Assembly: GCA_021789695.1 (NCBI GenBank)
Contig: JAJYJH010000001.1
Span: forward strand, 325,346 to 389,345
Length of the DNA stretch: 64,000 nt
From: a bacterium
Lineage (GTDB): Bacteria; Elusimicrobiota; Elusimicrobia; Elusimicrobiales; UBA9959
Reading direction: 5' to 3'
Shown one piece after another: positions 7,322 to 57,237 of the stretch. Under the pieces are notes generated by a model that saw nothing but the letters and a program-made list of their open reading frames with translations, was not told where the DNA came from and did no database searches. Position 1 is the stretch's first letter. Every line of letters starts with the position of its first letter. The position numbers were made by a program, and so were the translations under genes.

Positions 7322-7325
7322 ATCT

Positions 7326-7859: not shown

Positions 7860-7864
7860 AATTA

Positions 7865-7893: not shown

Positions 7894-8047
7894 CAGCCGG
7901 GTCAAGGGCCGCGGCGGTTGCAAAAGCTCTCAGGCTTTTTTAAAATATCTCGACAGAACAGGCGGCCTTAGCGGGCGCGGCCGGGCTCTATGAGCAGCGG
8001 GAGACCGCAGGACTATCCCCCCGGAAGGGGACGACAGCGGAGATACC

Positions 8048-10615: not shown

Positions 10616-10656
10616 GCTCTGGTCCGTTCCGTGTTCGAGGGGCCCTCGCACATTGG

Positions 10657-10662
10657 TATAAT
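10657..10662 (+). promoter_or_regulatory. -10 hexamer TATAAT (TGgTATAAT), 6 nt upstream of ATG 10669
   Basis: Sequence cattgGTATAATttgtccATG, with no SD in the spacer. Confidence 0.45.
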
Positions 10663-10668
10663 TTGTCC

Positions 10669-11187: not shown

Positions 11188-11192
11188 CCGCG

Positions 11193-11666: not shown

Positions 11667-11785
11667 ATCAGGAAGATTATACAGAAATAGCCTTCCCCCG
11701 CCATCGGCCTAAAGGCCCGGTCAGACAAGGGTCTAAAGGCCGTGAAGAAGGCCGCCCTGGCGGCCTTCAGAAGCGCGTAGCGGGT

Positions 11786-13054: not shown

Positions 13055-13065
13055 ATGTTCTCTAT

Positions 13066-13071
13066 ATTATA
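13066..13071 (-). promoter_or_regulatory. -10 hexamer TATAAT (minus strand), 11 nt upstream of rhlE ATG 13054
   Basis: Minus strand reads gacTATAATatagagaacatATG. There is no clear SD. Confidence 0.4.
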
Positions 13072-13134
13072 GTCATTTTCTCCCGTCTTGCCGAAGGGGC
13101 TCTCCCTCCGGCCGGACGCAGCGGAAGGATATTT

Positions 13135-32302: not shown

Positions 32303-34216
32303 ATGTCGTTCCAGCGCAAGATTCTCACAGCGGCCGTACTCCTTCTGGCCTCCGGAACGGCCTCTGCCCTCCTCAGCCCGGGCGCCGAACTCAGACGTCT
32401 GGACCTGATCCAGCGAGCCGCCGGCCTGCACGCCTGGCGGGACCCCTACTGGCAGAAACTGCTCTATTACCACAACACCCTTTACTCAGGCCTGCGCAGC
32501 TCGTCGCTGAACCCGGCCTTCTATCTCTCGAAATGGGGGAACATAAACCCGAGACTGGAGATGGAGGCCGAGATAGACGGTCTTTTCTTCCAGGGGGAGG
32601 ACAACGACAGCCCCGAGTGCCTCTTCCCGGAGCGCTACCGCTGGCTGCGCAGGGAACTGGGGATTACCGAGACGGACTTCCCCCCGCGAAAATGCACCAA
32701 GTTCGAATCCTGGAAAGCCGGGCTGGACCCGGAATCTGTAAGTCTGATCTTCGCCGCAGGCTACCTCAACAATCCCTCCACCCTCTACGGGCATACCTTC
32801 CTGCGCCTGCACAAGCGGGGCGGGGACGGCGCGGACCTGCTGGACTACACGATGAACTACGCAGCGAACACCGGCGACCAGAAAGGCCTGCTGTTCGCGC
32901 TTAAGGGCCTGGTCGGGGCCTATCCGGGGCAGTTCTCCACCGTGCCGTACTACCTGAAGATACAGGAATACCACAACATGGAGAACAGGGACCTGTGGGA
33001 TTTTCCGCTTGACCTGACACAGGAGCAGATAGACCGCCTCCTGCGCCACGCCTGGGAGCTGGGCAAGGCTTCCTTTCCTTACCGCTTCTTCACGCGCAAC
33101 TGTTCCTGGCAGCTGCTGCCGCTGCTGGACATAGTAAAGCCCGGGCTGGACCTGGAGGGCAGGTTCCATCTATGGGTGATACCTTCCGACACGGTCAAGG
33201 CGATAGTGACCTCTTCCGAGGCGGCGCGAGCGGTCTGGCGGCCTTCGCTCTGGGATACCGTGAACTGGAAGCGCGCGCAGCTGGGGGCCGCGGAACGCGT
33301 GGTGGCGCTGCAACTGGCGCTCGGAGACCAGGAGGGAGCCATGTCCGCCCTGGCTCTGCTGCCGCCCCAGCGGCAGGCGGCGATACTGGAGACGGCAGCC
33401 GACTATCTGAGCTGGCGTTTTTACGCGGGACGCATAGGCAAGGCGCAGCTCGACTTGCGGACTGACCCGCTGCTGGCCGCGCGGGCCGCGCTGGGACAGC
33501 GGACGCCGTTTACCGGAACCCCGGCGCGCCCGTCCTCCGTGATCGACGCCCACGACAGCATGCGCCTGGGCGCCGGCCTGGTCTCGCTGAAGAACGGCCC
33601 GGCCTACGAGCTGCAGGCGCGCTTCGCGTTGCAGGACCTGCTTGACGACCCGACCGGCTACCTGCCCGACGCCGCCCTGGAGATGGGCTCGCTGCGCTTG
33701 CGCTACGAGCCGCGCTACGACCGTTATTACCTTGAGGAGGGCGTGCTGGCGCACGTCCTGAGCCTAAATCCCTGGGACGACTGGGTGCGCCGCCCGTCGT
33801 GGGAACTCTTCGCGGGCTTCCAGCAGGCCCCGGAAACAGGGGCGCAGAGCGGCAAGGCCGACATCTGGGCGATGAACGCGGCCTCGGGCCTTTCCGTGAA
33901 GTTCGACGGGGCGGTCCGCCAGGTCTGGTTCGCCATGGCTCAGGCCGACGGCGGCTTAGGGCCTTCGCTGAACTCCGGTTGGAGGGCCGGCGCCGGCCTC
34001 AAGGCCGGGGTTCTGGCCTCGCGCGGCCCGGTGCGCGCGCTGCTGCAGGCCAGGTATATAAGTTACGCTTTCGGCGACACCAGGCCTCTCTGGGCGGGTT
34101 CCGCCGCCGCTTCGGTGCGCCTGGCGAAGGACAGCGAGGCCAGGCTGGAGTACGCCTGGCGCGGCGGGGAGCGGGAGACGGGCCTGTACTTCAACCAGTT
34201 CTTCTTCGCCCCATAG
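32303..34216 (+). CDS. DUF4105 (Lnb N-terminal periplasmic domain)-like protein with a beta-rich C-terminal region
   Basis: I trimmed the 31865 ORF to ATG 32303. It has a signal peptide and the motifs YWQKLLYYH, NNPSTLYGHTFLRL and FFTRNCSWQLLPLL. The C-terminal 150 aa show alternating beta-strand patterns and end FNQFFFAP. Confidence 0.7.
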   Translation: MSFQRKILTAAVLLLASGTASALLSPGAELRRLDLIQRAAGLHAWRDPYWQKLLYYHNTLYSGLRSSSLNPAFYLSKWGNINPRLEMEAEIDGLFFQGEDNDSPECLFPERYRWLRRELGITETDFPPRKCTKFESWKAGLDPESVSLIFAAGYLNNPSTLYGHTFLRLHKRGGDGADLLDYTMNYAANTGDQKGLLFALKGLVGAYPGQFSTVPYYLKIQEYHNMENRDLWDFPLDLTQEQIDRLLRHAWELGKASFPYRFFTRNCSWQLLPLLDIVKPGLDLEGRFHLWVIPSDTVKAIVTSSEAARAVWRPSLWDTVNWKRAQLGAAERVVALQLALGDQEGAMSALALLPPQRQAAILETAADYLSWRFYAGRIGKAQLDLRTDPLLAARAALGQRTPFTGTPARPSSVIDAHDSMRLGAGLVSLKNGPAYELQARFALQDLLDDPTGYLPDAALEMGSLRLRYEPRYDRYYLEEGVLAHVLSLNPWDDWVRRPSWELFAGFQQAPETGAQSGKADIWAMNAASGLSVKFDGAVRQVWFAMAQADGGLGPSLNSGWRAGAGLKAGVLASRGPVRALLQARYISYAFGDTRPLWAGSAAASVRLAKDSEARLEYAWRGGERETGLYFNQFFFAP

Positions 34217-37121: not shown

Positions 37122-38387
37122 TTATTTAGACTCCAGGCCGGCGGAGATCTCCAACTTGATCAACGCGAGAGCTGCACTGTCGTGCGCCTGGGCCAGCGAG
37201 AGGCGGACCTGTTCCACAGTGACCAACGCGCTCAGCACGTCCAGGTTCGTGACCAGGCCCAGCTTGTAGTCCTCCTGCTGTAGACGCGCGTTCTCCTTGG
37301 CCAGCTGGATAGCGTCCACCAGACTGTCGGTCTGCAGCGAGAGGAAGTGGAAATCGTCGTAGGCGGAACGCACGTCGCTGAGCGCTTGACGTTCTACCAG
37401 GCGCGCGCCCAGGGCGGCAGAACGTTTGGCCGCGGCGGCGGAGTCGCGCTGGGCGGCCGCAGAGCCTCCGGTGTAGAGCGGCAGCGAGAGCGTCAGCGTC
37501 CCGTCCCAGCGGTCCGCGGGTTTCGGGGCCGGATCGCGCAGGACGTAATAGTCACCGGAGGCGGTCACCGACGGCCACAGGTTGTGGTCCTGGACGTCTG
37601 CCTGGTAGGAGGCAGCTTCGTAAGCCTTGCGCTGCGCCTCGATGTCCGGCCGCAGCAGGGCCGCCCTGAGGTAGGTCTCCCGACCAGTCTGCGAGCGGCG
37701 GGGCAGTTTCCTCGGGGCCAGGTCCTCGTCCAGGCCCGTCAGGAACCGGAGCACCTGCTGCGCCAGCCCCTCGGAGGCGGCCGCGTTCAGGTAAGCAGCC
37801 CTGTCCTGGGCCAGCTGGGTCTGCGCGGTGACGACCTCGCTGACGCGCGAGCGCCCGATATCGACCCTGGCCTGCAGCTCGGCTATGCGCCGCGCGTCCA
37901 CGTCGATCTGTCCGCGGCGTATCACCAGCTCGCGCTGCGCCTCGTGCAGCGTTAGATAGGCCTGAGCGACGGTGAGGTAGAAAAGCTGCGTGGCGCGGGC
38001 CAGGCCCAGCTTCGCGGAGCCGGTCCTGGCAGCCGCGGCCTTGGCGTTTAGGTAGTCGCGCATGCCGGAGAAGACGGAATAGGCCGCGGTCAGGTAACCT
38101 TTATTCTGGGCGTCGGCGTTCTGCTGCTTGTAGGCGGAGCCCGTAAGAGCGAGGACGGGTCTGAAGGCCGCGCCAGCCAGCCGTTCCGCATCCTCAAGCT
38201 GCGTCACGCCTTCGCCCTGCTGCGCGAGGACTTCGCTCTTGGCCAGAGCCAGTTGGTAAGCCTCGGGCAGCGTAATCGGCCGCATGGTATCGGTGGAGAT
38301 CTCCTCGACCGGGGAGGTGGAGTTGTTCTGCGCCGCCAGGGCGCAGGGCATCAGCGAGAGCAGCGAGACTATAAAGATGCGTCTCAT
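37122..38387 (-). CDS. TolC-family outer membrane efflux protein
   Basis: 421 aa with a signal peptide and paired OEP repeats. It overlaps the tetR stop. Confidence 0.85.
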   Translation of the reverse strand: MRRIFIVSLLSLMPCALAAQNNSTSPVEEISTDTMRPITLPEAYQLALAKSEVLAQQGEGVTQLEDAERLAGAAFRPVLALTGSAYKQQNADAQNKGYLTAAYSVFSGMRDYLNAKAAAARTGSAKLGLARATQLFYLTVAQAYLTLHEAQRELVIRRGQIDVDARRIAELQARVDIGRSRVSEVVTAQTQLAQDRAAYLNAAASEGLAQQVLRFLTGLDEDLAPRKLPRRSQTGRETYLRAALLRPDIEAQRKAYEAASYQADVQDHNLWPSVTASGDYYVLRDPAPKPADRWDGTLTLSLPLYTGGSAAAQRDSAAAAKRSAALGARLVERQALSDVRSAYDDFHFLSLQTDSLVDAIQLAKENARLQQEDYKLGLVTNLDVLSALVTVEQVRLSLAQAHDSAALALIKLEISAGLESK

Positions 38388-47998: not shown

Positions 47999-48781
47999 CT
48001 ACTCTACGGCGCTCATGCCCGTGGCCCAGTCGGCTTTCTGCCCCGTGGGTTTTATCGAGATAAGTTTGTTGTCCGAGTCGGTCAGTCCGCTGGAGCAGGA
48101 GAACAGGACGTCGTATATGTAGCCTATGCGCAAATCTGGCGCGGCGCCGAGCACTCCGTCGGTGTCGTCCAGGTAAATGTAGTCGAGAGTCTTCTTCGGC
48201 CCAGCGTATACGAGGTTCAGCCGCCAGCCGGAAACCGTTTTGCTGGCCGTTATCATCTGCAGGTCCATTTGCAGTTCGCGGCCCTGGAAAGAAGCAGGGT
48301 TCCGGAAAAACGCCTCTTCCTGCCCGCGCTCCGGCGTCGCCGGAACGCGTTCGGGCTCAATTATTATAGGCGCTCCCGCGGCCGCCGAAGAGAGCCAGGA
48401 GGAAGAATAGCCGGCCGGCGCAGACGTCCCCTGCTGAACCGCGGAGTCCCCGGAGCCAGCGGCCGCTGGAGCCGCGGCCTTGACGGACTCGGAGTCCTCT
48501 GGCGCCGTAGCGGACGAGTCTCCCTCCTCCTGAGAGGTCTCGCCCGGCCCGAGCTCGTCTTGCTCCGGAGCCGCATCCGGCGAGCCTCCGGCAGCGGCTT
48601 CCGCAGCCAGCCCCCCCGCTGACCGGCCCTTCGGATTGGCCGAGGTATAGGCGGACTGATAGGCGGGGGCGTTCTGGAGGTCGGCGGCCGGGTAGAACTT
48701 CTCCTTGAGCATGAACCCTATCGTGATGCCCACGCCGAAGAGAAGCATCGTGTTGACGAAACGCATCCGAAAGAAATTCAT
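47999..48781 (-). CDS. Membrane-anchored hypothetical protein with a disordered acidic/Ala-Ser linker
   Basis: One N-terminal TM segment (VNTMLLFGVGITIGFML), low-complexity residues 60-150 and a folded-looking C-terminus. I recognise no family. Confidence 0.5.
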   Translation of the reverse strand: MNFFRMRFVNTMLLFGVGITIGFMLKEKFYPAADLQNAPAYQSAYTSANPKGRSAGGLAAEAAAGGSPDAAPEQDELGPGETSQEEGDSSATAPEDSESVKAAAPAAAGSGDSAVQQGTSAPAGYSSSWLSSAAAGAPIIIEPERVPATPERGQEEAFFRNPASFQGRELQMDLQMITASKTVSGWRLNLVYAGPKKTLDYIYLDDTDGVLGAAPDLRIGYIYDVLFSCSSGLTDSDNKLISIKPTGQKADWATGMSAVE

Positions 48782-48839
48782 ACCACGAATTTTATAATAT
48801 TTGGGTTGTATTGTATATTTGAAGCCGGGGGAGGCGTAT

Positions 48840-49571
48840 ATGCTGAAAATACTGCTGGCCGCGCTGTTCTTGGCGGCGCCAGGCGCGAGAGCCGCGGAGA
48901 CGGGCTGCGTTTACGGTATGCACGGTGAAGTGCGGATACAGAGCTCTGCAGGGGGGCCATGGGCAGAGGCGTACAGGGGGACCCCCTTCAGCGAAGGCGA
49001 CGCGATCAGGACCGGCGAAAGCTCCTGGTGCGAACTGCTGCTGCGGGACGGAAGTTTCATCCGGCTGGACGCGGACGCGCAGGTCTCCGCGGAGGAGCTC
49101 AGGGTGCACGAAGGGGACAGGTTCTTCCTCTTCTCTTTTCTGAGAGGCAAGGCCCTCTGGCTGGCCGCTAAACTCAAGCCGGCCGGCGGCGGCAAGTTCG
49201 AAGTGCGCACACCTTCCGCTGTCTGCGCCGTGCGCGGCACAGATTTCGCGATATCGGTCTCCACGGAAGGCCGTACGGACGTCGGGCTTTTCGACGGCGC
49301 CGTTCTTCTTTCCACCGGTTCAAGTCACGAAGCGCTCCTGCCAGGCGGAGAAGCCGAGGCGGAGCGGGGAAGACTTGCGGTGCAGGCACGGCTTTCCAGG
49401 CTCATGCTGGCGGAGGAACGCCGCTGGAAGAAGCTCAAGTCCCGCGTGGAACGCCTGAGGGAACGTCTGCGGGAGCGGCAGGATTTCATAGACCGCTACG
49501 TGGCGGAGCGGCGGAAGGCGCTGTCCAAGTTCAAGGACCGCCAGCGGGAAAAGGTCGAGCGCCGCAACTGA
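48840..49571 (+). CDS. FecR-domain secreted protein with a basic coiled-coil tail
   Basis: I trimmed the 48801 ORF to ATG 48840 (SD GGGGGAGG). It has a signal peptide and a FecR-like core (GDAIRTGESSWCELLLRDGSFIRLDADAQV..VRTPSAVCAVRGTDF). Confidence 0.7.
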   Translation: MLKILLAALFLAAPGARAAETGCVYGMHGEVRIQSSAGGPWAEAYRGTPFSEGDAIRTGESSWCELLLRDGSFIRLDADAQVSAEELRVHEGDRFFLFSFLRGKALWLAAKLKPAGGGKFEVRTPSAVCAVRGTDFAISVSTEGRTDVGLFDGAVLLSTGSSHEALLPGGEAEAERGRLAVQARLSRLMLAEERRWKKLKSRVERLRERLRERQDFIDRYVAERRKALSKFKDRQREKVERRN

Positions 49572-49573
49572 CG

Positions 49574-49617
49574 GGCGCGAAAAAGGCCGGGAGAACTCCC
49601 CCGGCCTTTTTCGCGCC
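49574..49617. terminator. Bidirectional terminator between the FecR gene and the outer-membrane operon
   Basis: 18-bp arms GGCGCGAAAAAGGCCGGG / CCCGGCCTTTTTCGCGCC with an 8-nt loop. Confidence 0.85.
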
Positions 49618-49627
49618 GCCGACGGCC

Positions 49628-50686
49628 TTAGGGAAGTTCCGCGTCCAGGTCGTAGGACGAAGTGCGGTTGACCTTCACCTGCATCCTCTTGTCGGCCATC
49701 AGAAGCTGGGAAAGGTCGGCCGCGCCGCCCATGTGCATGGCCACGTCCAGCACCGCCGTGGTGCCGTCGTACGACCGGAGCCAGGAAGAACGGACGGCCG
49801 GAATGTTGCGAAGCAGTTTGGTAAAATCGCTCAGGGCGTTCATGTCCTTCACGTTCTCAAGCGTCAGGCGCACAACCGACCGCTCACGCAGCGCCTTCAG
49901 GATCTTGTCCGTAAGGTCCCCGGAGGCGCGCTTGGCCGCGTTTATCAGCGAAGCCCGGGCCGCAGCCTGGTCGTTAAGGTCTATGCCGCCAGCGGAGTCC
50001 TGCACAGAGGCCAGAGTTTCCTGGGAGCCCTGCTTGACCGCGGACAGAGAAACGCCGGCTCTATAGGAAACGAACCCGCCCAACCCTTCCCTGGTGTTGA
50101 AGGAGGTCTGAGCCTCGCCTTTTACCAGTATGTCGGCCTTGTCCTTCTCGCCCGTCAGGAACCCCGCCGAGATGAACCTGTCCTTCAACTCCAGCGCGGA
50201 GTATTCAGTCTTCTGCGGAACGCCGTCCACGGACTCGCTTATATCGAATCCTATAACCGGGTTGCCCAGCTTCTGCGGCTCCGGCTCCAGGTTGCGCAGT
50301 TTGGCGGCCAGGTCTTCCTTGCGCACATGCGCGCGGATGCGCACCTTATAGAAGCCGCCGTCCTGCCATTCCTTGAGCGTTTCGTACTTCTCTATATAAC
50401 CTTCGCTCTGGGAAGTGATGGAGTCGTCTATCAGCACGGCCTTGGAGACCATCGCGTCCTGGGAGACGTAAACCCCGACCACCAGCCCGAGCGCGTTCCT
50501 CATGGCGTCGGACATGGCGCTCTTGCGGGCGGCGGCGATGTCGCCGGCGACCACTGGGGCCATGCCGTCGGCCTCAACGACTTCCGTCTGGTAAGCGGGG
50601 TTGAGCGAGCTGCGGTGAACGCCGGCGCAGCCGGCGGCGGCCAGGAAGACCGCCGCCAGCAGGACGCGGGAAAGGCCGGAACGCAT
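49628..50686 (-). CDS. Lipoprotein with LPP20/FlgT_N-like N-terminal module
   Basis: Lipobox LAAAGC. AAARKSAMSDAMRNALGLVVGVYVSQDAMV...GYIEKYETLKE..FYKVRIRAHV resembles LPP20/FlgT_N folds by eye. Confidence 0.6.
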   Translation of the reverse strand: MRSGLSRVLLAAVFLAAAGCAGVHRSSLNPAYQTEVVEADGMAPVVAGDIAAARKSAMSDAMRNALGLVVGVYVSQDAMVSKAVLIDDSITSQSEGYIEKYETLKEWQDGGFYKVRIRAHVRKEDLAAKLRNLEPEPQKLGNPVIGFDISESVDGVPQKTEYSALELKDRFISAGFLTGEKDKADILVKGEAQTSFNTREGLGGFVSYRAGVSLSAVKQGSQETLASVQDSAGGIDLNDQAAARASLINAAKRASGDLTDKILKALRERSVVRLTLENVKDMNALSDFTKLLRNIPAVRSSWLRSYDGTTAVLDVAMHMGGAADLSQLLMADKRMQVKVNRTSSYDLDAELP

Positions 50687-50695
50687 GCCCTGCCG

Positions 50696-51145
50696 TTACT
50701 CGGCCAGCTTCAGGCCGGCATCAGTAAGGGCCTGCTTGGGCAGGCGAAGAGTCACCACGCAGCCGTCGTCGGAGGTCCACTCGGTGCGCACTATCTGCGC
50801 GCCCTTGATAACGGCATTGATCTTGGTGGCCAGCACAGAGTCCGTTTCCAGGGCCTTCTCCACGGTCACGCCGCCCTCCAGCGTTACGCCCTTAACAAGG
50901 GAAAGCAGGTTGTATTGGGCGTTGACTATGGCCGCGTTGCGGGAAGTGGCCATGCGCTGGGTCTTATTGTCCATCGTCTGGTCCGCCGCGCCGAGGCCCC
51001 GGGCGAAGATATAGTGCTTGGTCACGCCCTGTTCCACCCACTCGCGCTCTATTTCGCCGGTCTTGGAAACGGTACCCTTGTCCGGAGAAGAAGAGCAGGC
51101 CGCGGCCAGCAGGGCGACCGCGATTATGAGAAATGCTTTTTTCAT
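50696..51145 (-). CDS. LPP20/FlgP-family lipoprotein
   Basis: I chose start ATG 51145 (SD AAGGAGG). Lipobox LLAAAC. RMATSRNAAIVNAQYNLLSLVKGVTLEGGVTVE...IKGAQIV follows the LPP20 pattern. Confidence 0.7.
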   Translation of the reverse strand: MKKAFLIIAVALLAAACSSSPDKGTVSKTGEIEREWVEQGVTKHYIFARGLGAADQTMDNKTQRMATSRNAAIVNAQYNLLSLVKGVTLEGGVTVEKALETDSVLATKINAVIKGAQIVRTEWTSDDGCVVTLRLPKQALTDAGLKLAE

Positions 51146-51255
51146 GGCAAAAGCCTCCTTGGAACCCTCGTTTGGAACCCGAAGCCCTATTCTATAAACA
51201 AAACCCGGCGGTGTCAATTTAACGCCGCCCCCCGCCTCAGCGCGTGGCCTAGAGT

Positions 51256-52419
51256 TTAGTATATCCAGAAGAAATCGGAGTCTTTCTTCGGGGCCTGCTT
51301 GGGCGCGGAGCCAGAGGAGGGCCCGCTCTGCCGGGCCTTCGGTTCCGGGGCCAGCCAGACCCGCTGCTTCTTCTTTGCTTCCGCCATGTGCCAGCCCGCG
51401 AACTGGTAGGAGAAAGCCATCTGGGAGGTGTTGAATACCTGCCCAGATACCAGCATGCCGAAGTCCAGAGAGAAATTCTGGTAATTTACGCCCATGCCGA
51501 AGGCCATGCCCTTGTTGTCGTCCAGACCCTTGTACCCCAGACGCAGGGCGAAGATGTCCTGGAAACGGTACTCGATGCCTGCCCGCAGGCTCGTCAGCTT
51601 TTCCTGCAGGTACATGTCGCCGTCCACGGTGAACAGCAGCGACTGCGACATCACGGTAGGCGGTTGGAACGCCGCTCCGACGCGGAGTATGGACGGCAGC
51701 GGGGTGTTCTGCTCGTAGTACTTGAGGCCGGACCCCAGGTTGGCCGCGGAGACTCCGAGGGAAATGCCCGAATTAAGGTCGCGCACCAGCCAGCCTGCGT
51801 CCATGGCCAGGGCCGAGGCGGAATAGGTGTCCAGCAGCCTGGAGTTCACGTACTTGGCCGAGACGCCCAGATACTGTTCTATATTGGCCTTGTAACCTTC
51901 CAGGTTGGTTTCGCCCGCGTAGACCTTCTCGGCGTAACTCAGAGTAACGACCTTGGTGGTTTCGGCGTTCATGCTGATAGCCGGGACCGTGCCGTCGGGC
52001 TGTATGGGCCGGTAGACAAAATCGCCGCTGTTGGTGAACAGCGCGGATATCCCGACTCCGGGTTTGTCGTAGCCGGCCACCCCCTGCACCGGCAGCGGCA
52101 TGGCGAAAGCGAAGTAGTTCAGTCTGGAGTCGTCGAAGCCCGAGTAGTACATTGCCGAAGCCTGCGGCAGATAGAGCTGCCCCAGGCCGGCGGGATTGTA
52201 GTTCATGGCATACACGTCGTCGGCGACGGCGGCGAAGCTTCCGGCCATGCCGGCCGCGCGCGGGCTGATGTCGGACTTAAGGATCTGCACGCCGGACGAG
52301 CCGGCCCCCCCCGCGCGGGCTGGGACGGAATAGAAAAGCAGGCCGGCCGCGGCAAAAAGCACCGGCAGGCGGAAGACACGCCAGCAGGCTCCGGTTGAGG
52401 CCGTTGTCGCAGAGTTCAT
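51256..52419 (-). CDS. PorV/PorQ-family outer membrane beta-barrel
   Basis: Signal peptide, then ILKSDISPRAAGMAGSFAAVADDVYAMNYNPAGLG (the family signature). Alternating beta strands follow, and the protein ends with an aromatic-rich tail (..DFFWIY). Confidence 0.75.
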   Translation of the reverse strand: MNSATTASTGACWRVFRLPVLFAAAGLLFYSVPARAGGAGSSGVQILKSDISPRAAGMAGSFAAVADDVYAMNYNPAGLGQLYLPQASAMYYSGFDDSRLNYFAFAMPLPVQGVAGYDKPGVGISALFTNSGDFVYRPIQPDGTVPAISMNAETTKVVTLSYAEKVYAGETNLEGYKANIEQYLGVSAKYVNSRLLDTYSASALAMDAGWLVRDLNSGISLGVSAANLGSGLKYYEQNTPLPSILRVGAAFQPPTVMSQSLLFTVDGDMYLQEKLTSLRAGIEYRFQDIFALRLGYKGLDDNKGMAFGMGVNYQNFSLDFGMLVSGQVFNTSQMAFSYQFAGWHMAEAKKKQRVWLAPEPKARQSGPSSGSAPKQAPKKDSDFFWIY

Positions 52420-52437
52420 AAATCTGGCCGCCGCCCG

Positions 52438-55400
52438 CTACCGGATGACGGCGATCTTCACCACCTTGTCCAGGCCAGCGCCCTTGGCCTTCACGAAATA
52501 GATGCCGCTGACGACTTCGGAGCTGTCGGAGTTGGTCCCATCCCAGTCCACGGAACCCCTGCCCGCGGGTACGCCGCCGTCCAGCAGGGTCTTGACCAGC
52601 GCACCGGCCTGCGTGTAAACCTTTATAGAGAGCCCCCCCGGAGAAAGGACGTTGTACTGCACTATGGCGTGGCTGCCGTCCTTTATAATGTTATTGAACG
52701 CGGTGAGGTCGGTCCTATCGGCCGTGAGGTTGATGGCGTTGGAAACACCCAGGGAAATTACGTGGCCCAGATGGTCCCTGCCGAAGATCTCCAGGTATAC
52801 AGTGCCGACCCCCGGATAGCGGGCGGCGAAGCCCGGCTGCAGGCGCACGCGGCCCGAGATCTGGGGACGGCCAAGCGGGTCCGTATTCGAGACCGATTGA
52901 TCCGGGCCCTCCGAAAGGGCCAGATATGACCCGCTGAGGTCCGTCCTGGCCAGATCGACCGGCACATAGTCGTGGTCCCGCAGCTGGGCGTACTGAAAAA
53001 CCGTCTCCGCCCCGGTCAGCGTGGAGGAAGAAATCGCGCCCAAGGCGGCGAAATTAGAGTAGGGCACGTTGAACGAGATCTCGTCCCTGTCGTATAGCGC
53101 GGCGTAGATGCCGGCCGTGGCCGTCCCCTGCGTGTTGCGGCTTAGCGTCAGGGTGTACGGCAGGGGCGAGTTGGCCTCTGAATTGCCATAGTACTGGTTG
53201 GGCGAGGCGGAGACCACCAGGTAATAGCGTCCTCCGCCGTATGGCACCGTGTAGTTCAGTGTGACGGAATTATCCAGCGTGTAGCACTGGCCGGTGGGAT
53301 CGCAGGCGTTGCCGCCGGTGCCGTAGACGTTAGGGTTGGCCTCGGTGACATAGTTGCGGTCGGCGTCGAACAGGAACAGCGAATAGGCGTAGTAGATCCC
53401 GTTGTCGCTGCTCATGGGCAGGGTGAGAGCGGCGGTAAACTGGCCGGCCGCCAGCGGCAGCGAGTAATAATCCACGTCGCCAAGCGGGTAGATGGTAGCT
53501 GAAATTACGGTAAAGGTGCTGGCGTCCGTGGCGCATTCCGGGCCGTTGTTGTTGGCGCAGAGGGGCGACGAGGGCGAGGTCTCCAGCGAATCCACCCCGG
53601 CGCTGCTGCCGATGTTGTGGTCGGAGAAGGCCGCCTGTATGGCGTTCTGCACGGTGGAGCCGCACTGGCCCGGCCACATGGTGTTGAACTGCGTGCAGGC
53701 GTCCTGCATCGCGTCCTCGAAGTTCGCAAAATCGTCCGGGAAGTAAAAAAGCGCCGCGAAGGCCAGGATCTCCGCCTTGGTCTTGCCGGCGAAAGTGCCG
53801 GCGGAGAACTTGCCCTGATAACGCGAGCCGTTGGGATTGGACAGCTCGTAAAGGGTCTGGGAAAGGAAGAGGCTGTCGTCGTGCACCTCGCCGGCCCAGC
53901 AGGTGCTGCTGCCGCCGGAACCGTCGGTATTGCAGGCGGGCGGAATTGAGGAACTAAACCTGCGGAAGTACGTGGGCTTGCCGCTGCCGGAAATATCGCG
54001 GGCCGCGCCCTCCCCCTCGCCCACGAAATTGCCCAGCGTGATCTGGTTGGGATAGGAGGTGCCGTCATAACCCTCGTCCCAGAAGGAGGAGAGCGAGAAG
54101 AAGTCCGCCATCGCCTCGCTGATGGCGCCAAATTCCCCGAAATTGACTATCGGGTAGATATGGTCCACCACCAGGTGCGTATACTCGTGGCGCACGATGG
54201 TGCCGTCCAGCGCGAAAGAGCGGAACTGGCCGGTATTGTCCTTCACGCCGTCGCCCAGCAGAATCTGCTTTTTCTGCAGGTCGTAGAAGGCGTTCAACAT
54301 ACCGCTGCAGTTGCTGACGCCGGAAGTGTAGCAGGAATAGAGCGCGTCCGGGTCGCCGGTGGCGTGCGCCATTACCGGGACCTGCCCGGAGATATCCGCC
54401 GGCGGAGTGTTCGGGTGAGAGGGATCTATGTCTATGCCCTCGAAGAAGCGATGCACGGCGTTCAGATGGTAGAACGCGCTGATCTCGGAGAGTCCCTCAA
54501 ACGGGCCGAGGCTGTTGTCCATGTAGATCGTGGGCGCGGCGGTGGACCAGACCACGGAGCCGGTGGTGTTGCTGGTGGTGCCGGTGCTGACCGTCAGCAC
54601 CATGTAACTGGAGTAGTCTATCGTGAAGCCGTCGCTGGTGCCGGAGGCGTCCGCGTCCAGCGTGACCGTATAAGAAGGATTTTCCACGGCCGCGCCGAAG
54701 AACGGGGTGCTGCGCGAGCCCAGATAGGAACCGTAGACCGTGGAACCGCTCCTGACCTGCACGGTATCCTCGTCGTTGACGGAGCCGTAGCCGTCCATAG
54801 AACCGGCGCTGAAGGAGGCGAAGTGCGGCATCACCTTGGCGAAGGCGCCTCCCGGATAGGTTGACAGCCAGTCGGAGGCGTTTATTGCAATCGGATAGGA
54901 ATAGGAGGTGCTGTCGGAATATGGATGCGGCGTGGAGACCGAAGTCGTCTTGCTCAGCCACTTTCCCCCGCCGTTGTCGAAAGAGGCGCTGGCCCCAAGG
55001 AAATTGGTGACCGCGAAGTACGGGCCCTGCAGAGACGAGAAGACCTTTCCCTGCTGCTGGGTGCAGTAATCCCCGTAAGCGTTAGTGACAACGGGATAGG
55101 TCGAGCCGGCCACCCAGACGTGCTGGTCCGGCAACGAGGCCTGCACGGGCTGTCCCCAGCTTTCACTCAGGTTGTTAGGTATGTCGTAGGTAGGCAGCGG
55201 CGAAACGGCGTAGACGGTCCCGGAGGAAGTACCGTAGGTCGGGTAGGACACGCCGTTGCAGAAGGTCTGGAGCTGATCGTACCTGAAGAGCACCGAGCCG
55301 TTAGCCGCGTCCACATAGTAGACCCACAGGCCATTGCCCCGGCCGGTCACCTTCCAGGCCAGTTTCAGGACCCCGTCGGCCTCGTCCGGATAGATCACCA

Positions 55401-55986
55401 GCTCCGTGGCGGAAATGACCAGGGAGCTCCCGGCGTCGGCGTCGGCAGCGGCGACGGCCGCCTGCGCGGTTATGGCCGGAGAGGTATTTAGCGTAAGGGC
55501 AGGCTCGTACCTGCCCTGGTAGCCGGCGATGCGGCCGTCCTTCAGGACGTGCACCCTGGCGTAGGAAAACTCGACCGGGATGCCGTCCTTGTACTGGCGG
55601 TACTCCAGATGGGTCACGCCCATGAACTCTTTCTTAAGGACCAGGCGCAGCGAGGAGGGATCCACGTTAAGGAGCCCTTTATTATCGTTAAAGAACGCCA
55701 TCGCCGCCTGCTCCGGCGTGCCAGGGTAACTGACGGTGCGGCCGCCAGTTATCGCCGCCGGCAGGGCGGTGCGCGGATTATAGCGTATCTTCCAGCCCCT
55801 GCCGCCCTGCTTGGCGACGAAGTCCCGGAAGGCCGCGCGCGCGGCCAGCGATGGGGACTTGCGCACGGCGAAAAGCGAATCCGAAAGCGGGGACGGACGG
55901 CGCCCGGCAGGGGCGGCGTGAACAACGGAGGCCCCGGCCAGGAACAGGAGCAGGAAAGCGAGAAGCGCGGCCTTTCTGTTCGGCAT
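52438..55986 (-). CDS. Secreted thermolysin-type (M4/M36-like) zinc metalloprotease with PPC-like domain and T9SS/FlgD-type C-terminal domain
   Basis: Signal peptide, FTP/PepSY-like propeptide and zinc site VRHEYTHLV...GAISEAMADFF. It also has a PPC-like GDVDYYSLPL. The last ~85 aa (SIKVYTQAGALVKTLL..VDWDGTN..SGIYFVKAKG..KIAVIR) follow the Por_Secre_tail/FlgD_ig pattern. Confidence 0.85.
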   Translation of the reverse strand: MPNRKAALLAFLLLFLAGASVVHAAPAGRRPSPLSDSLFAVRKSPSLAARAAFRDFVAKQGGRGWKIRYNPRTALPAAITGGRTVSYPGTPEQAAMAFFNDNKGLLNVDPSSLRLVLKKEFMGVTHLEYRQYKDGIPVEFSYARVHVLKDGRIAGYQGRYEPALTLNTSPAITAQAAVAAADADAGSSLVISATELVIYPDEADGVLKLAWKVTGRGNGLWVYYVDAANGSVLFRYDQLQTFCNGVSYPTYGTSSGTVYAVSPLPTYDIPNNLSESWGQPVQASLPDQHVWVAGSTYPVVTNAYGDYCTQQQGKVFSSLQGPYFAVTNFLGASASFDNGGGKWLSKTTSVSTPHPYSDSTSYSYPIAINASDWLSTYPGGAFAKVMPHFASFSAGSMDGYGSVNDEDTVQVRSGSTVYGSYLGSRSTPFFGAAVENPSYTVTLDADASGTSDGFTIDYSSYMVLTVSTGTTSNTTGSVVWSTAAPTIYMDNSLGPFEGLSEISAFYHLNAVHRFFEGIDIDPSHPNTPPADISGQVPVMAHATGDPDALYSCYTSGVSNCSGMLNAFYDLQKKQILLGDGVKDNTGQFRSFALDGTIVRHEYTHLVVDHIYPIVNFGEFGAISEAMADFFSLSSFWDEGYDGTSYPNQITLGNFVGEGEGAARDISGSGKPTYFRRFSSSIPPACNTDGSGGSSTCWAGEVHDDSLFLSQTLYELSNPNGSRYQGKFSAGTFAGKTKAEILAFAALFYFPDDFANFEDAMQDACTQFNTMWPGQCGSTVQNAIQAAFSDHNIGSSAGVDSLETSPSSPLCANNNGPECATDASTFTVISATIYPLGDVDYYSLPLAAGQFTAALTLPMSSDNGIYYAYSLFLFDADRNYVTEANPNVYGTGGNACDPTGQCYTLDNSVTLNYTVPYGGGRYYLVVSASPNQYYGNSEANSPLPYTLTLSRNTQGTATAGIYAALYDRDEISFNVPYSNFAALGAISSSTLTGAETVFQYAQLRDHDYVPVDLARTDLSGSYLALSEGPDQSVSNTDPLGRPQISGRVRLQPGFAARYPGVGTVYLEIFGRDHLGHVISLGVSNAINLTADRTDLTAFNNIIKDGSHAIVQYNVLSPGGLSIKVYTQAGALVKTLLDGGVPAGRGSVDWDGTNSDSSEVVSGIYFVKAKGAGLDKVVKIAVIR

Positions 55987-55987
55987 A

Positions 55988-57112
55988 TCAGCTCCGTCCG
56001 GCGAGACGCAGCACGCGCAGCGCCGCGGCCAGCTTGACCTTGGTATCGGGATCGTCCAGCCCCTGGGCGAAGATAGGGAGAGCCTCGTCCTCGGGGAAGG
56101 AGGCGGCCACGTCCAGCGCGGCCAGTCTTATGTCCGGACTGGCGGCGGTCATGGCGTCGCGCACTACGGAGACGTCCGGCTGCGCGCCGCAGAGCATCAG
56201 GGCTTTCTGCGCCGCTATGCGGACCCTTATATCCTTGCTGTCCTGGGAGATCTGGAAGAGCTTGGTCTTGACCTTGGCGTCCCGTATCCCGCCTAAAGCC
56301 GCTATGGCCTTGTAGCGGATGGTCGGGTTGTTGTCGTCGGCCAGTTTCAGCAGAACGTCCTCGGCGTCCCTCTTGGCTGGCGAACAGGCCAGCGCGTCGA
56401 GGGCGGCCATGCGTACCCGCACTGAATCGTCCCCGGCCGCCAGTTTGGCCAGCGGACCGGCACCCGCGGGATGGCAGATCTTGGAAAGCACCGTGGCCGC
56501 TTCAAAGCGCACGGCCTCGTCCTGGTCGGAGAGGGCGTTTATGAAGGTGGAAAGTTCGTCGTCATGCCCGAGCCGGGCCAGCTCGCGGGCCGCGGTGTCG
56601 CGGATGGGGCCGTAAGCGTCGTTCTTCAGTTTGTAGAGCAGGTCCGCGCCCTTCTCCCCCCGCATCCAGGCGTAGGCTTCTATGGCTTTTTCCCGTATGC
56701 TGTTCTGCGAGATTATCCTGAGCTGGACCAGCGGATCGTTGGTGACAGGGATGGGGCCCTGGGCCGGGACGTCGTCGATGATGGCCCGGACCGTCTTCAT
56801 GCCGGCCGGGCTGCCCAGTTCCCACAGCGCTCGCGCGGCCGCGATGCGCACGTATTTGTCTCTGTCGTTCAGCATATCGCGCAGCATGCCTTCAGCGGCC
56901 TTGTTACCGGCCTCGCCCAGTACCAGCACGGCCTGCTCCCGCACGTCGGAATCGGAGCTTTTCACATCCGAAACGACAATCTTGAGCGCTTTGGGCCCGA
57001 GTTCCTTCTCGGACGCGGACTGGGCGGCCAGCCCGGGCCGGGCAAAAAAAGCGAGCAGCAAAGGCAGCAGTAAGGCGGCCATGCTAAGATTATAGGTCTT
57101 TGTTCTTTGCAT
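55988..57112 (-). CDS. Secreted HEAT-repeat (PBS-lyase-like) protein
   Basis: Signal peptide, then repeated D..VR..AA.ALG.. units. The stop lies 1 nt before the protease ATG (TGAtATG). ATG 57082 is an alternative start. Confidence 0.75.
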   Translation of the reverse strand: MQRTKTYNLSMAALLLPLLLAFFARPGLAAQSASEKELGPKALKIVVSDVKSSDSDVREQAVLVLGEAGNKAAEGMLRDMLNDRDKYVRIAAARALWELGSPAGMKTVRAIIDDVPAQGPIPVTNDPLVQLRIISQNSIREKAIEAYAWMRGEKGADLLYKLKNDAYGPIRDTAARELARLGHDDELSTFINALSDQDEAVRFEAATVLSKICHPAGAGPLAKLAAGDDSVRVRMAALDALACSPAKRDAEDVLLKLADDNNPTIRYKAIAALGGIRDAKVKTKLFQISQDSKDIRVRIAAQKALMLCGAQPDVSVVRDAMTAASPDIRLAALDVAASFPEDEALPIFAQGLDDPDTKVKLAAALRVLRLAGRS

Positions 57113-57163
57113 CGTGATTAACTTTCGATTACAAAAAAATTACAGCCGATCCCGGTAAAATCG

Positions 57164-57237
57164 TGCCCCCTGCAGGACTCGAACCTGCAACCCACTGCTC
57201 CGAAGGCAGTTGCTCTATCCAGTTGAGCCAAGGGGGC
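57164..57237 (-). tRNA. tRNA-Arg (anticodon TCG)
   Basis: Hand-folded cloverleaf: acceptor GCCCCCT/AGGGGGC, D stem GCTC/GAGC, anticodon stem ACTGC/GCAGT with loop CTTCGGA, T arm GCAGG-TTCGAGT-CCTGC. CCA is not encoded. Confidence 0.9.

What the first reader, a model, noticed from the sequence alone, without database searches (positions are those of the whole stretch)
49628..57112. Self-contained operon: CTD-tagged giant metalloprotease, PorV/PorQ-like barrel, two LPP20/FlgP-FlgT-like lipoproteins and a secreted HEAT-repeat protein
Seen in sequence: five co-directional minus-strand genes are separated by 1 nt (TGAtATG), 18 nt, 110 nt and 9 nt. They lie downstream of tRNA-Arg and end at an 18-bp-arm bidirectional terminator (49574-49617). 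The protease has a signal peptide, an FTP/PepSY-like propeptide, a HEYTH...SEAMADFF zinc site and a PPC-like module. Its last ~85 aa have the T9SS type-A sorting / FlgD-Ig pattern. The next gene carries the PorV/PorQ signature (RAAGMAG.FAAVADD..AMNYNPAGLG).

Established knowledge: in Bacteroidota, PorV binds CTD cargo and hands it to the attachment complex. LPP20/FlgP and FlgT lipoproteins build outer-membrane-associated rings around flagellar basal bodies.

Inference: one cargo, a dedicated shuttle-like barrel, ring-type lipoproteins and a periplasmic HEAT protein are encoded as a unit, and no porK/L/M/N, sov, porU or flagellar genes occur in 64 kb. I do not know of a described system with this composition. 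It could be a minimal surface-display or secretion module.
Basis: partly seen in the sequence, partly recalled or inferred. Interest (0 to 1): 0.75.

Follow-up and report, generated by a model that had tools for sequence, protein, structure and literature searches.

The report
Elusimicrobial protease with PorV-like anchor barrel
A thermolysin-type protease carrying a type-IX-secretion sorting tag sits beside its own PorV-like outer-membrane barrel and a periplasmic HEAT protein throughout the phylum Elusimicrobiota, where this secretion pathway has not been described; the two lipoproteins next to them are a separate unit.

Summary
In detail: all five minus-strand genes, their spacings, the tRNA-Arg and the hairpin terminator are as described, and most domain calls hold.

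The window comes from an Elusimicrobiota genome. The protease is M4/thermolysin-like and ends in a FlgD_ig/type-A-like C-terminal domain (CTD). The barrel passes NCBI's PorV/PorQ family model. The lipoproteins are FlgP-like and FlgT-like.

The "self-contained five-gene operon" reading is only partly right.
- Only the HEAT–protease–barrel trio is conserved in deeply diverging Elusimicrobiota, with overlapping stop and start codons.
- The lipoprotein pair has its own promoter, conserved in 11 of 12 loci. It is absent from the distant loci that could be checked.
- "CTD protein followed by a PorV-family barrel" recurs in most of about 60 other PorV-family loci from many phyla.
- One Elusimicrobia metagenome-assembled genome (MAG) encodes a Sov/SprA translocon homologue beside other such pairs. 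The module therefore probably depends on machinery encoded elsewhere.

Best reading: a type IX secretion system (T9SS)-style cargo and anchor module. The protease would be held on the barrel by its retained CTD. The HEAT protein may act as a periplasmic partner of the barrel's conserved C-terminal tail.

This is a new variant of a known kind and is not described in the searched literature. I could not test whether the window's own genome has a translocon.

The parts
57163..57237 (-). tRNA-Arg (anticodon TCG), 50 nt upstream of the HEAT gene. It is context and possibly shares a transcript with the trio.
   Evidence: ARAGORN.
55988..57112 (-). Secreted (Sec signal peptide) HEAT-repeat protein, 374 aa. 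It is the first gene of the conserved trio; its stop codon lies 1 nt before the protease ATG.
   Evidence: HEAT_2 E=1.9e-41 and HEAT E=6e-23. Orthologues precede the protease in 17 of the 18 non-duplicate trio loci that reach that far (all except L017; L012 starts inside the protease gene). A paralogous barrel, P0105, has HEAT repeats fused to its C-terminus through a Pro/Ala linker.
52438..55986 (-). M4/thermolysin-like zinc metalloprotease precursor, 1182 aa. Order of parts: signal peptide, FTP and PepSY propeptide, enlarged catalytic domain, PPC-like beta-sandwich, two further beta-sandwiches, CTD.
   Evidence: Pfam FTP and FlgD_ig above cut-off. Profile A3 against the PDB: thermolysin precursor 5A3Y E=3.8e-19, mature thermolysin 3e-6. 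AF2 model pLDDT 75.5. Foldseek: thermolysin, aureolysin and vibriolysin at TMt 0.55-0.59; ColG collagen-binding domain at TMt 0.72.
54115..54189 (-). Zinc site: HEYTH (aa 600-604) and the third ligand Glu624 in GAISEAMADFF.
   Evidence: Read from the translation. H600, E601, H604 and E624 are invariant in alignment A3. HEYxH is present in all 19 Elusimicrobiota orthologues.
52441..52689 (-). C-terminal sorting/anchor domain (aa ~1100-1182), FlgD_ig / T9SS type-A-like beta-sandwich.
   Evidence: FlgD_ig 31.5 bits (cut-off 27). Weak hits to the C-terminal ends of the PorZ and T9SS-dependent M6-like models. TIGR04183 15 bits (cut-off 23). jackhmmer from this domain finds C-terminal domains of genes next to PorV-family barrels in most loci. 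hhalign gives Prob 95% to the CTD of the FCB upstream family.
51256..52419 (-). PorV/PorQ-family outer-membrane beta-barrel, 387 aa. It is the last gene of the trio.
   Evidence: NCBIfam PorV_fam 111 bits (cut-off 90). The PorV and PorQ equivalog models are far below cut-off. Profile A1 matches PorV 6H3I_F at E=1.9e-6. About 90 orthologue clusters, nearly all from Elusimicrobia where a source names the organism.
51259..51399 (-). Barrel C-terminal extension (aa ~341-387): a Lys/Pro-rich linker ending in KKDSDFFWIY.
   Evidence: All trio-context barrels whose C-terminus is on the contig have a 40-70-aa tail, ending in an aromatic motif in most (DSDFFWIY, PGWIY, EMFLLY; two end in N). Most PorV-like barrels from other phyla (33 of about 50, including all those with the ~1,100-1,250-aa upstream protein) end at the last strand.
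51189..51217 (-). Sigma-70-type promoter TTGACA-17-TAGAAT in the 110-nt gap. It drives the lipoprotein pair.
   Evidence: 11 of 12 consensus matches. TTGACA-N17-TA[GC]AAT is conserved upstream of the FlgP-like gene in 11 of 12 loci, and some loci have a hairpin plus T-run after the barrel stop.
50696..51145 (-). FlgP/LPP20-like lipoprotein, 149 aa (lipobox LAAAC). It is the most conserved protein of the locus, at 74-82% identity.
   Evidence: Profile A4 matches the C. jejuni FlgP model 9HMF_C at E=4.8e-5 over aa 48-122. Pfam LPP20 reaches only 15.3 bits (cut-off 25.9).
49628..50686 (-). FlgT-like three-domain lipoprotein, 352 aa (lipobox AAGC).
   Evidence: FlgT_N 31.9 bits (cut-off 28.8). AF2 model pLDDT 68.5. 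Best Foldseek matches are FlgT 3W1E (356 aa, E=1.3e-8) and FlgT in the Vibrio LPHT ring 8Z5N, followed by LptE-like, CsgG and PelC lipoproteins.
49574..49617 (.). Bidirectional intrinsic terminator hairpin between the FlgT-like gene and the convergent FecR-domain gene.
   Evidence: Read directly; partly detected by the scan.

Best explanation
The region holds two adjacent units.

Unit 1 (HEAT, protease, barrel) is a T9SS-style cargo and anchor module that is core to Elusimicrobiota.
- The M4 protease is made as a zymogen with an FTP/PepSY propeptide and exported by Sec. This is shown by sequence.
- It crosses the outer membrane through a Sov/SprA-like translocon encoded elsewhere. This is inferred.
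- It stays on the cell because its uncleaved C-terminal beta-sandwich binds the cognate PorV/PorQ-family barrel, as PorU does on PorV, PorZ on PorQ, and type-B cargo on PorP/SprF. This is inferred by analogy and gene pairing.
- The co-translated periplasmic HEAT protein is proposed to dock on the barrel's conserved periplasmic tail (...DSDFFWIY). It could stabilise the barrel or chaperone the cargo. This is inferred from a barrel-HEAT fusion in a paralogue.

Unit 2 (FlgP-like and FlgT-like lipoproteins) has its own promoter. Both proteins carry the insertion that marks ring-forming members of the SHS2/FlgP family. It most likely builds an outer-membrane-associated periplasmic lipoprotein ring or scaffold. 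A physical link to Unit 1 is possible but unproven.
For: - Domain identities.
- The trio is conserved beside yebC-ruvC in both the close and the distant Elusimicrobiota loci, with 1-4-nt gaps or overlaps.
- The active site is invariant.
- The gene directly upstream of the PorV-family barrel ends in the same type of CTD in most of about 60 other PorV-family loci. These include Elusimicrobia paralogues that pass TIGR04183: L027 at 30.9 bits and L051 at 27.5 bits.
- L027 encodes a Sov/SprA homologue: TIGR04189, E=3.1e-39.
- The tail is found only on the trio barrels, and P0105 is a barrel-linker-HEAT fusion.
- The internal promoter is conserved.
- Published precedent for barrel-anchored CTD proteins and linked cargo/shuttle genes: PMC9143113 and PMC12618676.
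- Published link between ring formation and the SHS2 insertion: PMC12222027.
Against: - No translocon, PorK/L/M/N or PorU was found in the window or in any orthologous locus.
- TXSScan reports no T9SS, and no other known secretion system, in Elusimicrobium minutum (PMC4793230 Table S3).
- The SprA-like ORF is truncated, scores 134 bits against an equivalog cut-off of 200, and sits in a different MAG of unverified relationship to the window organism.
- TIGR04183 itself is not met by this CTD (15 bits against 23).
- No binding, localisation or processing data exist.
- L017 keeps the protease and barrel but lacks the HEAT gene, so HEAT is dispensable in at least one lineage.
- In two paralogues (P0110, P0112) the FlgD_ig domain follows the last barrel strand, on the periplasmic side. 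That fits a periplasmic interaction as well as a surface one.
Confidence: 0.45

Rival explanations
1. PorU analogue. The protease is not simply cargo. It is the processing or attachment enzyme of an Elusimicrobial CTD pathway, tethered to a PorV-like barrel as the C25 sortase PorU is tethered to PorV, and it removes the CTDs of other cargo.
For: - The gene order and sizes mirror porU-porV: a ~1,150-aa CTD-retaining peptidase followed by a ~390-aa barrel. The P. gingivalis PG0026/PG0027 pair is from my own knowledge.
- In every trio locus examined it lies in the same place in a housekeeping neighbourhood (beside yebC-ruvC), unlike variable nutritional proteases; copy number per genome was not checked.
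- Elusimicrobia have other CTD proteins that would need processing.
- No PorU (NF033707) hit was found in any locus scanned.
- PorU 6ZA2 is the top Foldseek hit of the full model, at E=5e-9.
Against: - The PorU match has TM 0.12 and rmsd 30 Å, so it reflects strings of beta-sandwich domains rather than a shared catalytic fold.
- The catalytic domain is M4, not C25.
- An FTP/PepSY zymogen is typical of ordinary secreted proteases.
- There is no evidence that Elusimicrobial CTDs are cleaved or that A-LPS-type attachment exists.
Confidence: 0.15
2. Periplasmic tethered protease. There is no outer-membrane translocation. The CTD binds the periplasmic face of the barrel, and with the HEAT protein this forms an outer-membrane-attached periplasmic protease complex for envelope protein turnover or quality control.
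For: - No translocon is seen locally, and TXSScan finds none in E. minutum.
- Paralogous barrels carry periplasmic C-terminal modules, including FlgD_ig (P0110, P0112), HEAT, TPR and OmpA-like domains.
- The core-genome position suggests a housekeeping role.
Against: - Known PorV-family barrels present CTD proteins at the cell surface (PMC9143113; PMC12618676).
- FTP/PepSY-M4 zymogens and PPC domains are typical of extracellular enzymes.
- A SprA homologue exists in the phylum.
Confidence: 0.15
3. One reading: all five genes form one self-sufficient minimal secretion or display machine, with the lipoproteins forming a ring around the barrel.
For: - The five genes are adjacent in at least 11 genomes.
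- FlgP, FlgT, PelC, LptE and CsgG-type lipoproteins typically form rings or plugs under or in outer-membrane barrels.
Against: - The lipoprotein pair has its own conserved promoter, and one genome has an inserted gene-sized gap in front of it.
- The pair is absent from the distant trio loci that could be checked.
- The pair evolves far more slowly (74-82% against 46-61% identity), which suggests different constraints.
- The whole ~20-gene neighbourhood is syntenic, so adjacency alone is weak evidence.
- A PorV-type barrel cannot pass a folded ~120-kDa protein.
Confidence: 0.1
4. Ordinary secreted nutritional protease. The neighbouring barrel is a general FadL/PorV-like channel with no specific relation to it.
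For: - The PorV family belongs to the FadL-like barrels.
- The Pfam UPF0164 hit is weak, and the PorV and PorQ equivalog models are not met.
Against: - The CTD-protein/barrel pairing recurs across phyla.
- The protease-barrel junction shows 4-nt overlaps in distant lineages.
- The pair persists at 31-33% barrel identity.
Confidence: 0.1

Closest known systems
T9SS attachment-complex pairs PorU-PorV and PorZ-PorQ (Porphyromonas gingivalis)
   Same: - A large peptidase or accessory protein with a retained type-A-like CTD is encoded directly upstream of a ~390-aa PorV/PorQ-family barrel.
- The barrel passes the PorV_fam model.
- The CTD shows weak hits to the C-terminal ends of the PorZ and T9SS-dependent M6-like models; the PorU sortase model was matched weakly only by the CTD of the L027 paralogue.
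   Different: - The catalytic domain is M4/thermolysin, not C25.
- The organism is Elusimicrobiota, outside the FCB superphylum.
- The barrel has a conserved C-terminal tail.
- A translationally coupled periplasmic HEAT protein is added.
- No PorK/L/M/N, PorU or A-LPS machinery was seen.
Type-B CTD cargo with cognate PorP/SprF shuttle and PorE lipoprotein (PorE-PorP-PG1035; SprB-SprF)
   Same: The cargo gene is genetically linked to its own dedicated barrel. A periplasmic partner is associated with the barrel. The anchoring is non-covalent (PMC9143113; PMC12618676).
   Different: - The CTD here is type-A/FlgD_ig-like, not type B.
- The barrel is of the PorV/PorQ family, not PorP/SprF.
- The partner is a soluble HEAT protein, not the TPR/OmpA lipoprotein PorE.
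- In Flavobacterium all type-A CTDs are said to use the single PorV.
T9SS-dependent M36/M6 metallopeptidases (NCBIfam NF038113, NF052323)
   Same: An FTP-type propeptide or metalloprotease core joined to a C-terminal T9SS sorting domain.
   Different: These models match only the CTD region, at 15.7 bits. The catalytic domain is closest to M4 and carries roughly 200 aa of extra beta-rich sequence.
FlgP basal disk and FlgT H-ring lipoproteins of Campylobacter and Vibrio flagellar motors
   Same: The SHS2-type fold, lipidation, the insertion between helix and second strand that correlates with ring formation, and a full-length FlgT-like three-domain layout of almost the same size (352 against 356 aa).
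   Different: - No flagellar genes are in the window or its flanks.
- TXSScan finds no flagellum in E. minutum.
- Pfam LPP20 is below cut-off.
- The pair sits beside a PorV-like barrel.
BamG-BamH of the Bacteroidota BAM complex
   Same: A FadL-like 14-strand barrel whose role is to hold an extracellular protein at the cell surface. It is conserved as core envelope machinery (PMC12611786).
   Different: BamH is a lipoprotein held by its N-terminal tail, not a CTD protein. No homology was tested here.

Membership tests
PorV/PorQ family (NCBIfam NF033709) | Score above the curated family cut-off | tested here: met
   111 bits against a cut-off of 90, covering model positions 2-323 of 326. Profile A1 matches PorV 6H3I_F at E=1.9e-6.
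PorV or PorQ proper (equivalogs NF033710, NF033711) | Score above the equivalog cut-offs (250 and 220 bits) | tested here: not met
   51.7 and 53.7 bits. This is a separate subfamily, orthologous essentially only within Elusimicrobiota.
PorV/PorQ family | Binds the CTD of cargo at the outer membrane | not testable with these tools
   Only gene pairing is available. No multimer modelling or experiment was possible.
T9SS type-A CTD (TIGR04183) / FlgD_ig (PF13860) | C-terminal ~80-aa beta-sandwich that scores with the models | tested here: inconclusive
   - FlgD_ig 31.5 bits (cut-off 27) is met; TIGR04183 15 bits (cut-off 23) is not.
- The AF2 CTD is an all-beta domain with pLDDT ~85-90.
- It is homologous to CTDs next to PorV-like barrels in other phyla.
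Canonical T9SS | Sov/SprA translocon in the same genome | not testable with these tools
   - None is in the window or the orthologous loci.
- A homologue is present in another Elusimicrobia MAG, L027: TIGR04189 134 bits against a cut-off of 200, on a truncated ORF.
Canonical T9SS | PorK/L/M/N (GldK-N) motor and ring, and the PorU sortase | tested here: not met
   - Absent from the 29 window proteins scanned and from the flanking genes annotated in L001-L005. The other fetched flanks were searched only with the window's own proteins.
- TXSScan found no T9SS in E. minutum.
- The rest of this genome was not available.
Peptidase family M4 (thermolysin) | HExxH with the third zinc ligand Glu 20 residues after the second His | tested here: met
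   H600-E-Y-T-H604 and E624 in GAISEAMADFF. These residues are invariant in 30 sequences.
Peptidase family M4 (thermolysin) | Sequence and fold similarity of the catalytic domain and propeptide | tested here: met
   - Profile against thermolysin precursor 5A3Y E=3.8e-19; mature thermolysin 3e-6.
- Foldseek TMt 0.55-0.59 to thermolysin, aureolysin and vibriolysin.
- With the single sequence, Pfam M4_C is below cut-off (17.7 against 24.4) and Peptidase_M4 is not detected. This is a divergent member.
PorU sortase (NF033707 / Peptidase_C25) | Gingipain-like C25 catalytic domain | tested here: not met
   No C25 or NF033707 hit beyond the CTD. The Foldseek hit to 6ZA2 has TM 0.12.
FlgP / LPP20 (PF02169) | Lipoprotein with an SHS2 fold that scores with the family model | tested here: inconclusive
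   Pfam 15.3 bits against a cut-off of 25.9, but the profile matches C. jejuni FlgP 9HMF_C at E=4.8e-5 across helix, insertion and strand. The lipobox is present.
FlgT (flagellar H-ring) | FlgT_N domain and three-domain FlgT architecture | tested here: met
   FlgT_N 31.9 bits (cut-off 28.8). The best structural matches are FlgT 3W1E and 8Z5N_0 over the full length at E~1e-8, although TM is only 0.30 because domain orientations differ and the model has pTM 0.41.
FlgP / FlgT as flagellar components | Encoded with, and assembled around, a flagellar basal body | tested here: not met
   No flagellar genes are among the scanned window genes or the annotated flanks of L001-L005. TXSScan finds no flagellum in E. 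minutum.

The most novel reading that the evidence does not exclude
Elusimicrobiota, outside the FCB superphylum, run a stripped-down CTD-sorting pathway made of a SprA-like pore and many cargo-specific PorV-like barrels. Within it, the phylum-wide M4 protease tethered to its barrel, with a HEAT partner gripping the barrel's tail, would be the pathway's processing or attachment enzyme. That would make it a metalloprotease replacement for the cysteine sortase PorU. The adjacent FlgP/FlgT-like lipoproteins would form a non-flagellar periplasmic ring that serves this machinery.
Probability: 0.12. Interest if true: 0.8.

Novelty: new variant of a known kind. Interest (0 to 1): 0.5.

Why it matters
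T9SS is repeatedly described as confined to Bacteroidota or the FCB superphylum (for example PMC11611037, PMC10515386, PMC12398890). TXSScan found no known secretion system at all in the cultured Elusimicrobium minutum.

A CTD-tagged protease with a dedicated PorV-family barrel is vertically inherited across Elusimicrobiota. Further CTD/barrel pairs and a Sov/SprA homologue occur in one MAG. Together these suggest that the cargo-recognition and anchoring half of the T9SS is older or more widely distributed than the motor half.

It also suggests that type-A-like CTDs can have private shuttle barrels, as type-B CTDs do. The locus gives a small, defined set of genes for testing CTD-barrel recognition, a possible HEAT-tail interaction, and what FlgP/FlgT-type ring lipoproteins do without a flagellum.

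Tried and rejected
- Exact-sequence look-ups of the window barrel and of its 100%-identical cluster representative found no indexed contig. The window's own genome could not be explored further.
- The ~1,100-1,250-aa CTD proteins upstream of FCB PorV-like barrels were tested as PorU or as homologues of this protease. They gave no significant NCBIfam or Pfam hit (only one sub-threshold CTD-type hit) and have no HExxH. hhalign similarity is confined to the 83-column CTD. Rejected.
- I recalled Bacteroidota BamP/BamM as a PorV-like/metalloprotease pair. Reading PMC12611786 showed this was wrong. Only BamG is FadL-like, and it holds BamH.
- The PorU 6ZA2 top Foldseek hit was not accepted as evidence of homology, because TM is 0.12.
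- A metagenome scan with the L027 SprA-like ORF returned nothing.
- tblastn of that ORF against the window and all loci hit only itself.
- Literature searches for T9SS or PorV in Elusimicrobia found nothing relevant.
- A search on flagella in Elusimicrobia was not informative.
- The single-sequence PDB search with the protease gave only a marginal propeptide hit. The profile search was needed.

Full report
**1. Observation**

- HEAT protein: 55988-57112.
- Protease: 52438-55986, 1 nt after the HEAT stop.
- Barrel: 51256-52419, after an 18-nt gap.
- Small lipoprotein: 50696-51145, after a 110-nt gap.
- 352-aa lipoprotein: 49628-50686, after a 9-nt gap.

The ORF lister extends the small lipoprotein to a TTG at 51217. 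That TTG is the -35 box of a promoter. The real start is the ATG at 51145, behind AAGGAGG, which gives 149 aa like all orthologues.

tRNA-Arg(TCG) is at 57163-57237. The 17-18-bp-arm hairpin with flanking A and T runs is at 49574-49617.

Base composition is even at about 60-67% GC. Third-position GC of 0.74-0.83 supports all five as real genes.

**2. What the proteins are**

*HEAT protein.* HEAT_2 scores E=1.9e-41, and there is an N-terminal signal peptide.

*Protease.*
- Pfam FTP (34.5 bits) and FlgD_ig (31.5 bits, cut-off 27) pass. PepSY, M4_C and TIGR04183 are below threshold.
- A 30-sequence profile matches the thermolysin precursor 5A3Y at E=3.8e-19 (propeptide) and mature thermolysin at 3e-6. 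It matches FlgD Ig domains at 1e-3.
- The AF2 model has pLDDT 75.5. By Foldseek it gives thermolysin, aureolysin and vibriolysin at TMt 0.55-0.59, M4/M36 propeptides, and the ColG collagen-binding (PPC-type) domain at TMt 0.72.
- HEYTH(600-604)...E624 has the thermolysin 20-residue spacing. It is invariant.
- I conclude it is a divergent but probably active M4-type zymogen with a C-terminal beta-sandwich.

*Barrel.*
- It passes NCBIfam PorV_fam (111 bits against a cut-off of 90). It is far below the PorV and PorQ equivalog cut-offs.
- Its profile matches the solved PorV 6H3I_F at E=1.9e-6.

*Lipoproteins.*
- Both profiles match the C. jejuni FlgP chain 9HMF_C, at 4.8e-5 and 1.1e-4.
- The 352-aa protein passes FlgT_N. 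Its AF2 model is best matched over its full length by FlgT (3W1E; 8Z5N_0), followed by LptE-like, CsgG and PelC lipoproteins.
- Both carry an insertion between the SHS2 helix and the second strand. PMC12222027 links this feature to ring formation.
- In the AF2 monomer this insertion (aa 71-95) has low confidence although its sequence is highly conserved.

**3. Organism and conservation**

- Barrel homologues of 41-100% identity form about 90 clusters, nearly all from Elusimicrobia where a source names the organism. NCBI already labels them "PorV/PorQ family protein".
- Protease orthologues are labelled "FlgD immunoglobulin-like domain containing protein" or "Zn-dependent metalloprotease".
- In at least 11 species-level genomes the five genes lie in the same order, inside a larger syntenic block. 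The block reads queA-spoIID-ruvBAC-yebC, then the five genes, then a convergent FecR-domain gene, an unknown 225-260-aa gene, and DAG kinase.
- The lipoproteins are the most conserved members: the FlgP-like protein at 74-82% identity and the FlgT-like protein at 64-76%. The protease is at 44-60%, the barrel at 46-61% and HEAT at 49-64%.

**4. Two units, not one**

- In deeply diverging Elusimicrobiota (L014, L015, L016, L018, L031; barrel 31-33% identical) HEAT-protease-barrel still sits beside yebC-ruvC.
- In L015 and L031 the barrel start overlaps the protease stop by 4 nt (in L031 the protease start also overlaps the HEAT stop), and an opposite-strand gene follows. Profile HMMs find no FlgP-like or FlgT-like gene in those loci.
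- In the window, the 110-nt gap before the FlgP-like gene holds TTGACA-17-TAGAAT, an 11 of 12 consensus match.
- The same TTGACA-N17-TA[GC]AAT is conserved in 11 of 12 loci. Some loci have a hairpin and T-run after the barrel stop, and L006 has a 730-nt insertion there.
- The trio is therefore the ancient operon. The lipoprotein pair is a neighbouring unit with its own promoter, although read-through in the window is not excluded.
- L017 keeps the protease, the barrel and divergent lipoproteins but lacks the HEAT gene.

**5. The pairing is general**

- I ran a jackhmmer search seeded with the last 95 aa of the protease over all fetched loci.
- In most of about 60 other PorV-family loci, the gene directly upstream of the barrel ends in the same kind of CTD. 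The loci come from Elusimicrobiota paralogues, FCPU426, Zixibacteria, Ignavibacteria, Bacteroidota, Calditrichia, Marinimicrobia, Gemmatimonadota and WOR-3.
- Elusimicrobia paralogue pairs include two M6 proteases and a beta-propeller protein. One M6 protease and the propeller protein have CTDs that pass TIGR04183, at 30.9 and 27.5 bits; the second M6 protease passes Pfam FlgD_ig at 33.3 bits.
- The FCB upstream proteins form their own unannotated family. They share only the CTD with this protease.

**6. Is the module self-contained?**

- No T9SS core gene is among the 29 window proteins scanned, the flanking genes identified by synteny, or the annotated flanks of the orthologous loci. tblastn with the SprA-like ORF of L027 hit nothing else in the window or any locus.
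- TXSScan reported no T9SS outside Bacteroidetes. Its table shows zeros for every system in E. minutum Pei191.
- However, locus L027 comes from a 209-kb contig of an "uncultured Elusimicrobia sp." MAG. It carries two PorV-like barrels, two M6-CTD proteases and, 2.5 kb further on beside lptFG, a 1761-aa ORF cut by the end of the fetched locus.
- That ORF matches TIGR04189 (Sov/SprA) at E=3.1e-39 and 134 bits, over five stretches. This is below the 200-bit equivalog cut-off, but the ORF is incomplete.
- At least some members of the phylum therefore have a SprA-like pore. A PorV-type barrel is itself a shuttle or anchor, not a pore.
- I could not determine whether the window's genome has such a gene.

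**7. Extra features**

- All trio barrels whose C-terminus is on the contig have a 40-70-aa charged, Pro-rich C-terminal extension. It ends in an aromatic motif in most (DSDFFWIY, PGWIY, EMFLLY; two end in N).
- Most PorV-like barrels of other phyla (33 of about 50) stop at the last strand.
- Other paralogues carry periplasmic C-terminal TPR, OmpA-like, fn3, FlgD_ig or HEAT modules.
- The P0105 barrel-linker-HEAT fusion suggests, by Rosetta-stone logic, that the separate HEAT protein here binds the barrel's tail. This is inference only.

**8. Mechanism and comparison**

- The best-supported model is a T9SS-style cargo and anchor module, at confidence of about 0.45.
- The steps are Sec export of the zymogen, passage through a pore encoded elsewhere, retention on the cognate barrel through an uncleaved CTD, and a HEAT partner on the periplasmic side.
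- The closest precedents are PorU-PorV and PorZ-PorQ, and the linked type-B cargo/PorP-SprF/PorE complexes (PMC9143113; PMC12618676).
- It differs in phylum, in catalytic class (M4, not C25), in the barrel tail and the HEAT partner, and in the absence of any visible motor or ring genes.

**9. Verdict**

- This is a new variant of a known kind. Databases already name the parts, but the searched literature does not describe the system.
- Interest is moderate, at 0.5.

Noticed in passing
L027:15596-20879 (+), uncultured Elusimicrobia sp. MAG contig CAZFYO010000006.1: A 1761-aa ORF that runs off the end of the fetched locus matches the T9SS translocon model TIGR04189 (Sov/SprA) at E=3.1e-39 and 134 bits (cut-off 200). 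It lies beside lptF/lptG and 2.5 kb from two M6-CTD proteases and two PorV-like barrels. This indicates a SprA-like pore outside the FCB superphylum.
   Followed up: partly
L032, L036-L038, L043, L045, L047, L048, L053, L054, L057-L059, L065-L069, L072, L074, L076, L079, L084 (ORF ending just before position ~10000 in most): A coherent family of ~1,070-1,280-aa CTD-bearing proteins, 31-53% identical to one another. It sits directly upstream of PorV-family barrels in Ignavibacteria, Bacteroidota, Calditrichia and Marinimicrobia. In the five members scanned it has no significant Pfam or NCBIfam match and is not PorU; none of the members has HExxH.
   Followed up: partly
P0105, P0110, P0112; L021, L023, L025, L034, L055, L064 barrels: Many PorV-family barrels carry periplasmic C-terminal add-ons after the last strand: HEAT repeats, FlgD_ig, TPR, an OmpA-like peptidoglycan-binding domain, or fn3. 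This suggests a general theme of periplasmic tethering for this barrel family.
   Followed up: partly
window 48801-49571 (+) and 47999-48781 (-): A convergent FecR-domain secreted protein (weakly similar to Leptospira LipL45/Lsa33) and a low-complexity 260-aa protein with no family match. Both are conserved next to the lipoprotein pair in most of the class-level Elusimicrobia loci that reach that far (each is missing from one or two).
   Followed up: partly
window 50696-51145 versus 49628-50686: The HMM of the FlgP-like lipoprotein weakly hits the N-terminal domain of the FlgT-like lipoprotein (E 6e-4 to 9e-3). The two adjacent genes therefore appear to be distant paralogues.
   Followed up: partly
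window 31865-34216 (+): A 783-aa protein with Lnb_N, DUF7840, DUF7842 and DUF7843 domains, of uncharacterised envelope function.
   Followed up: no
window 23582-24484 (-) and 24511-25386 (-): Two adjacent ~300-aa ORFs with strong coding signal (third-position GC 0.84-0.88) and no Pfam match.
   Followed up: no
window 3546-7321 (-) and 37122-38387 (-): An MFS transporter, a HlyD-type adaptor and a TolC-like OEP efflux operon, plus a second TolC-like gene. A TonB-dependent receptor plug protein lies at 19371-21551. These show a typical diderm envelope.
   Followed up: no
L017 (Elusimicrobiales MAG RUI522) 5041-13295: A reduced version of the locus. The HEAT, FecR and 260-aa genes are missing. 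The protease, the barrel (tail ...EMFLLY) and divergent lipoproteins (31-37% identity) are kept, and there is no recognisable internal promoter.
   Followed up: partly
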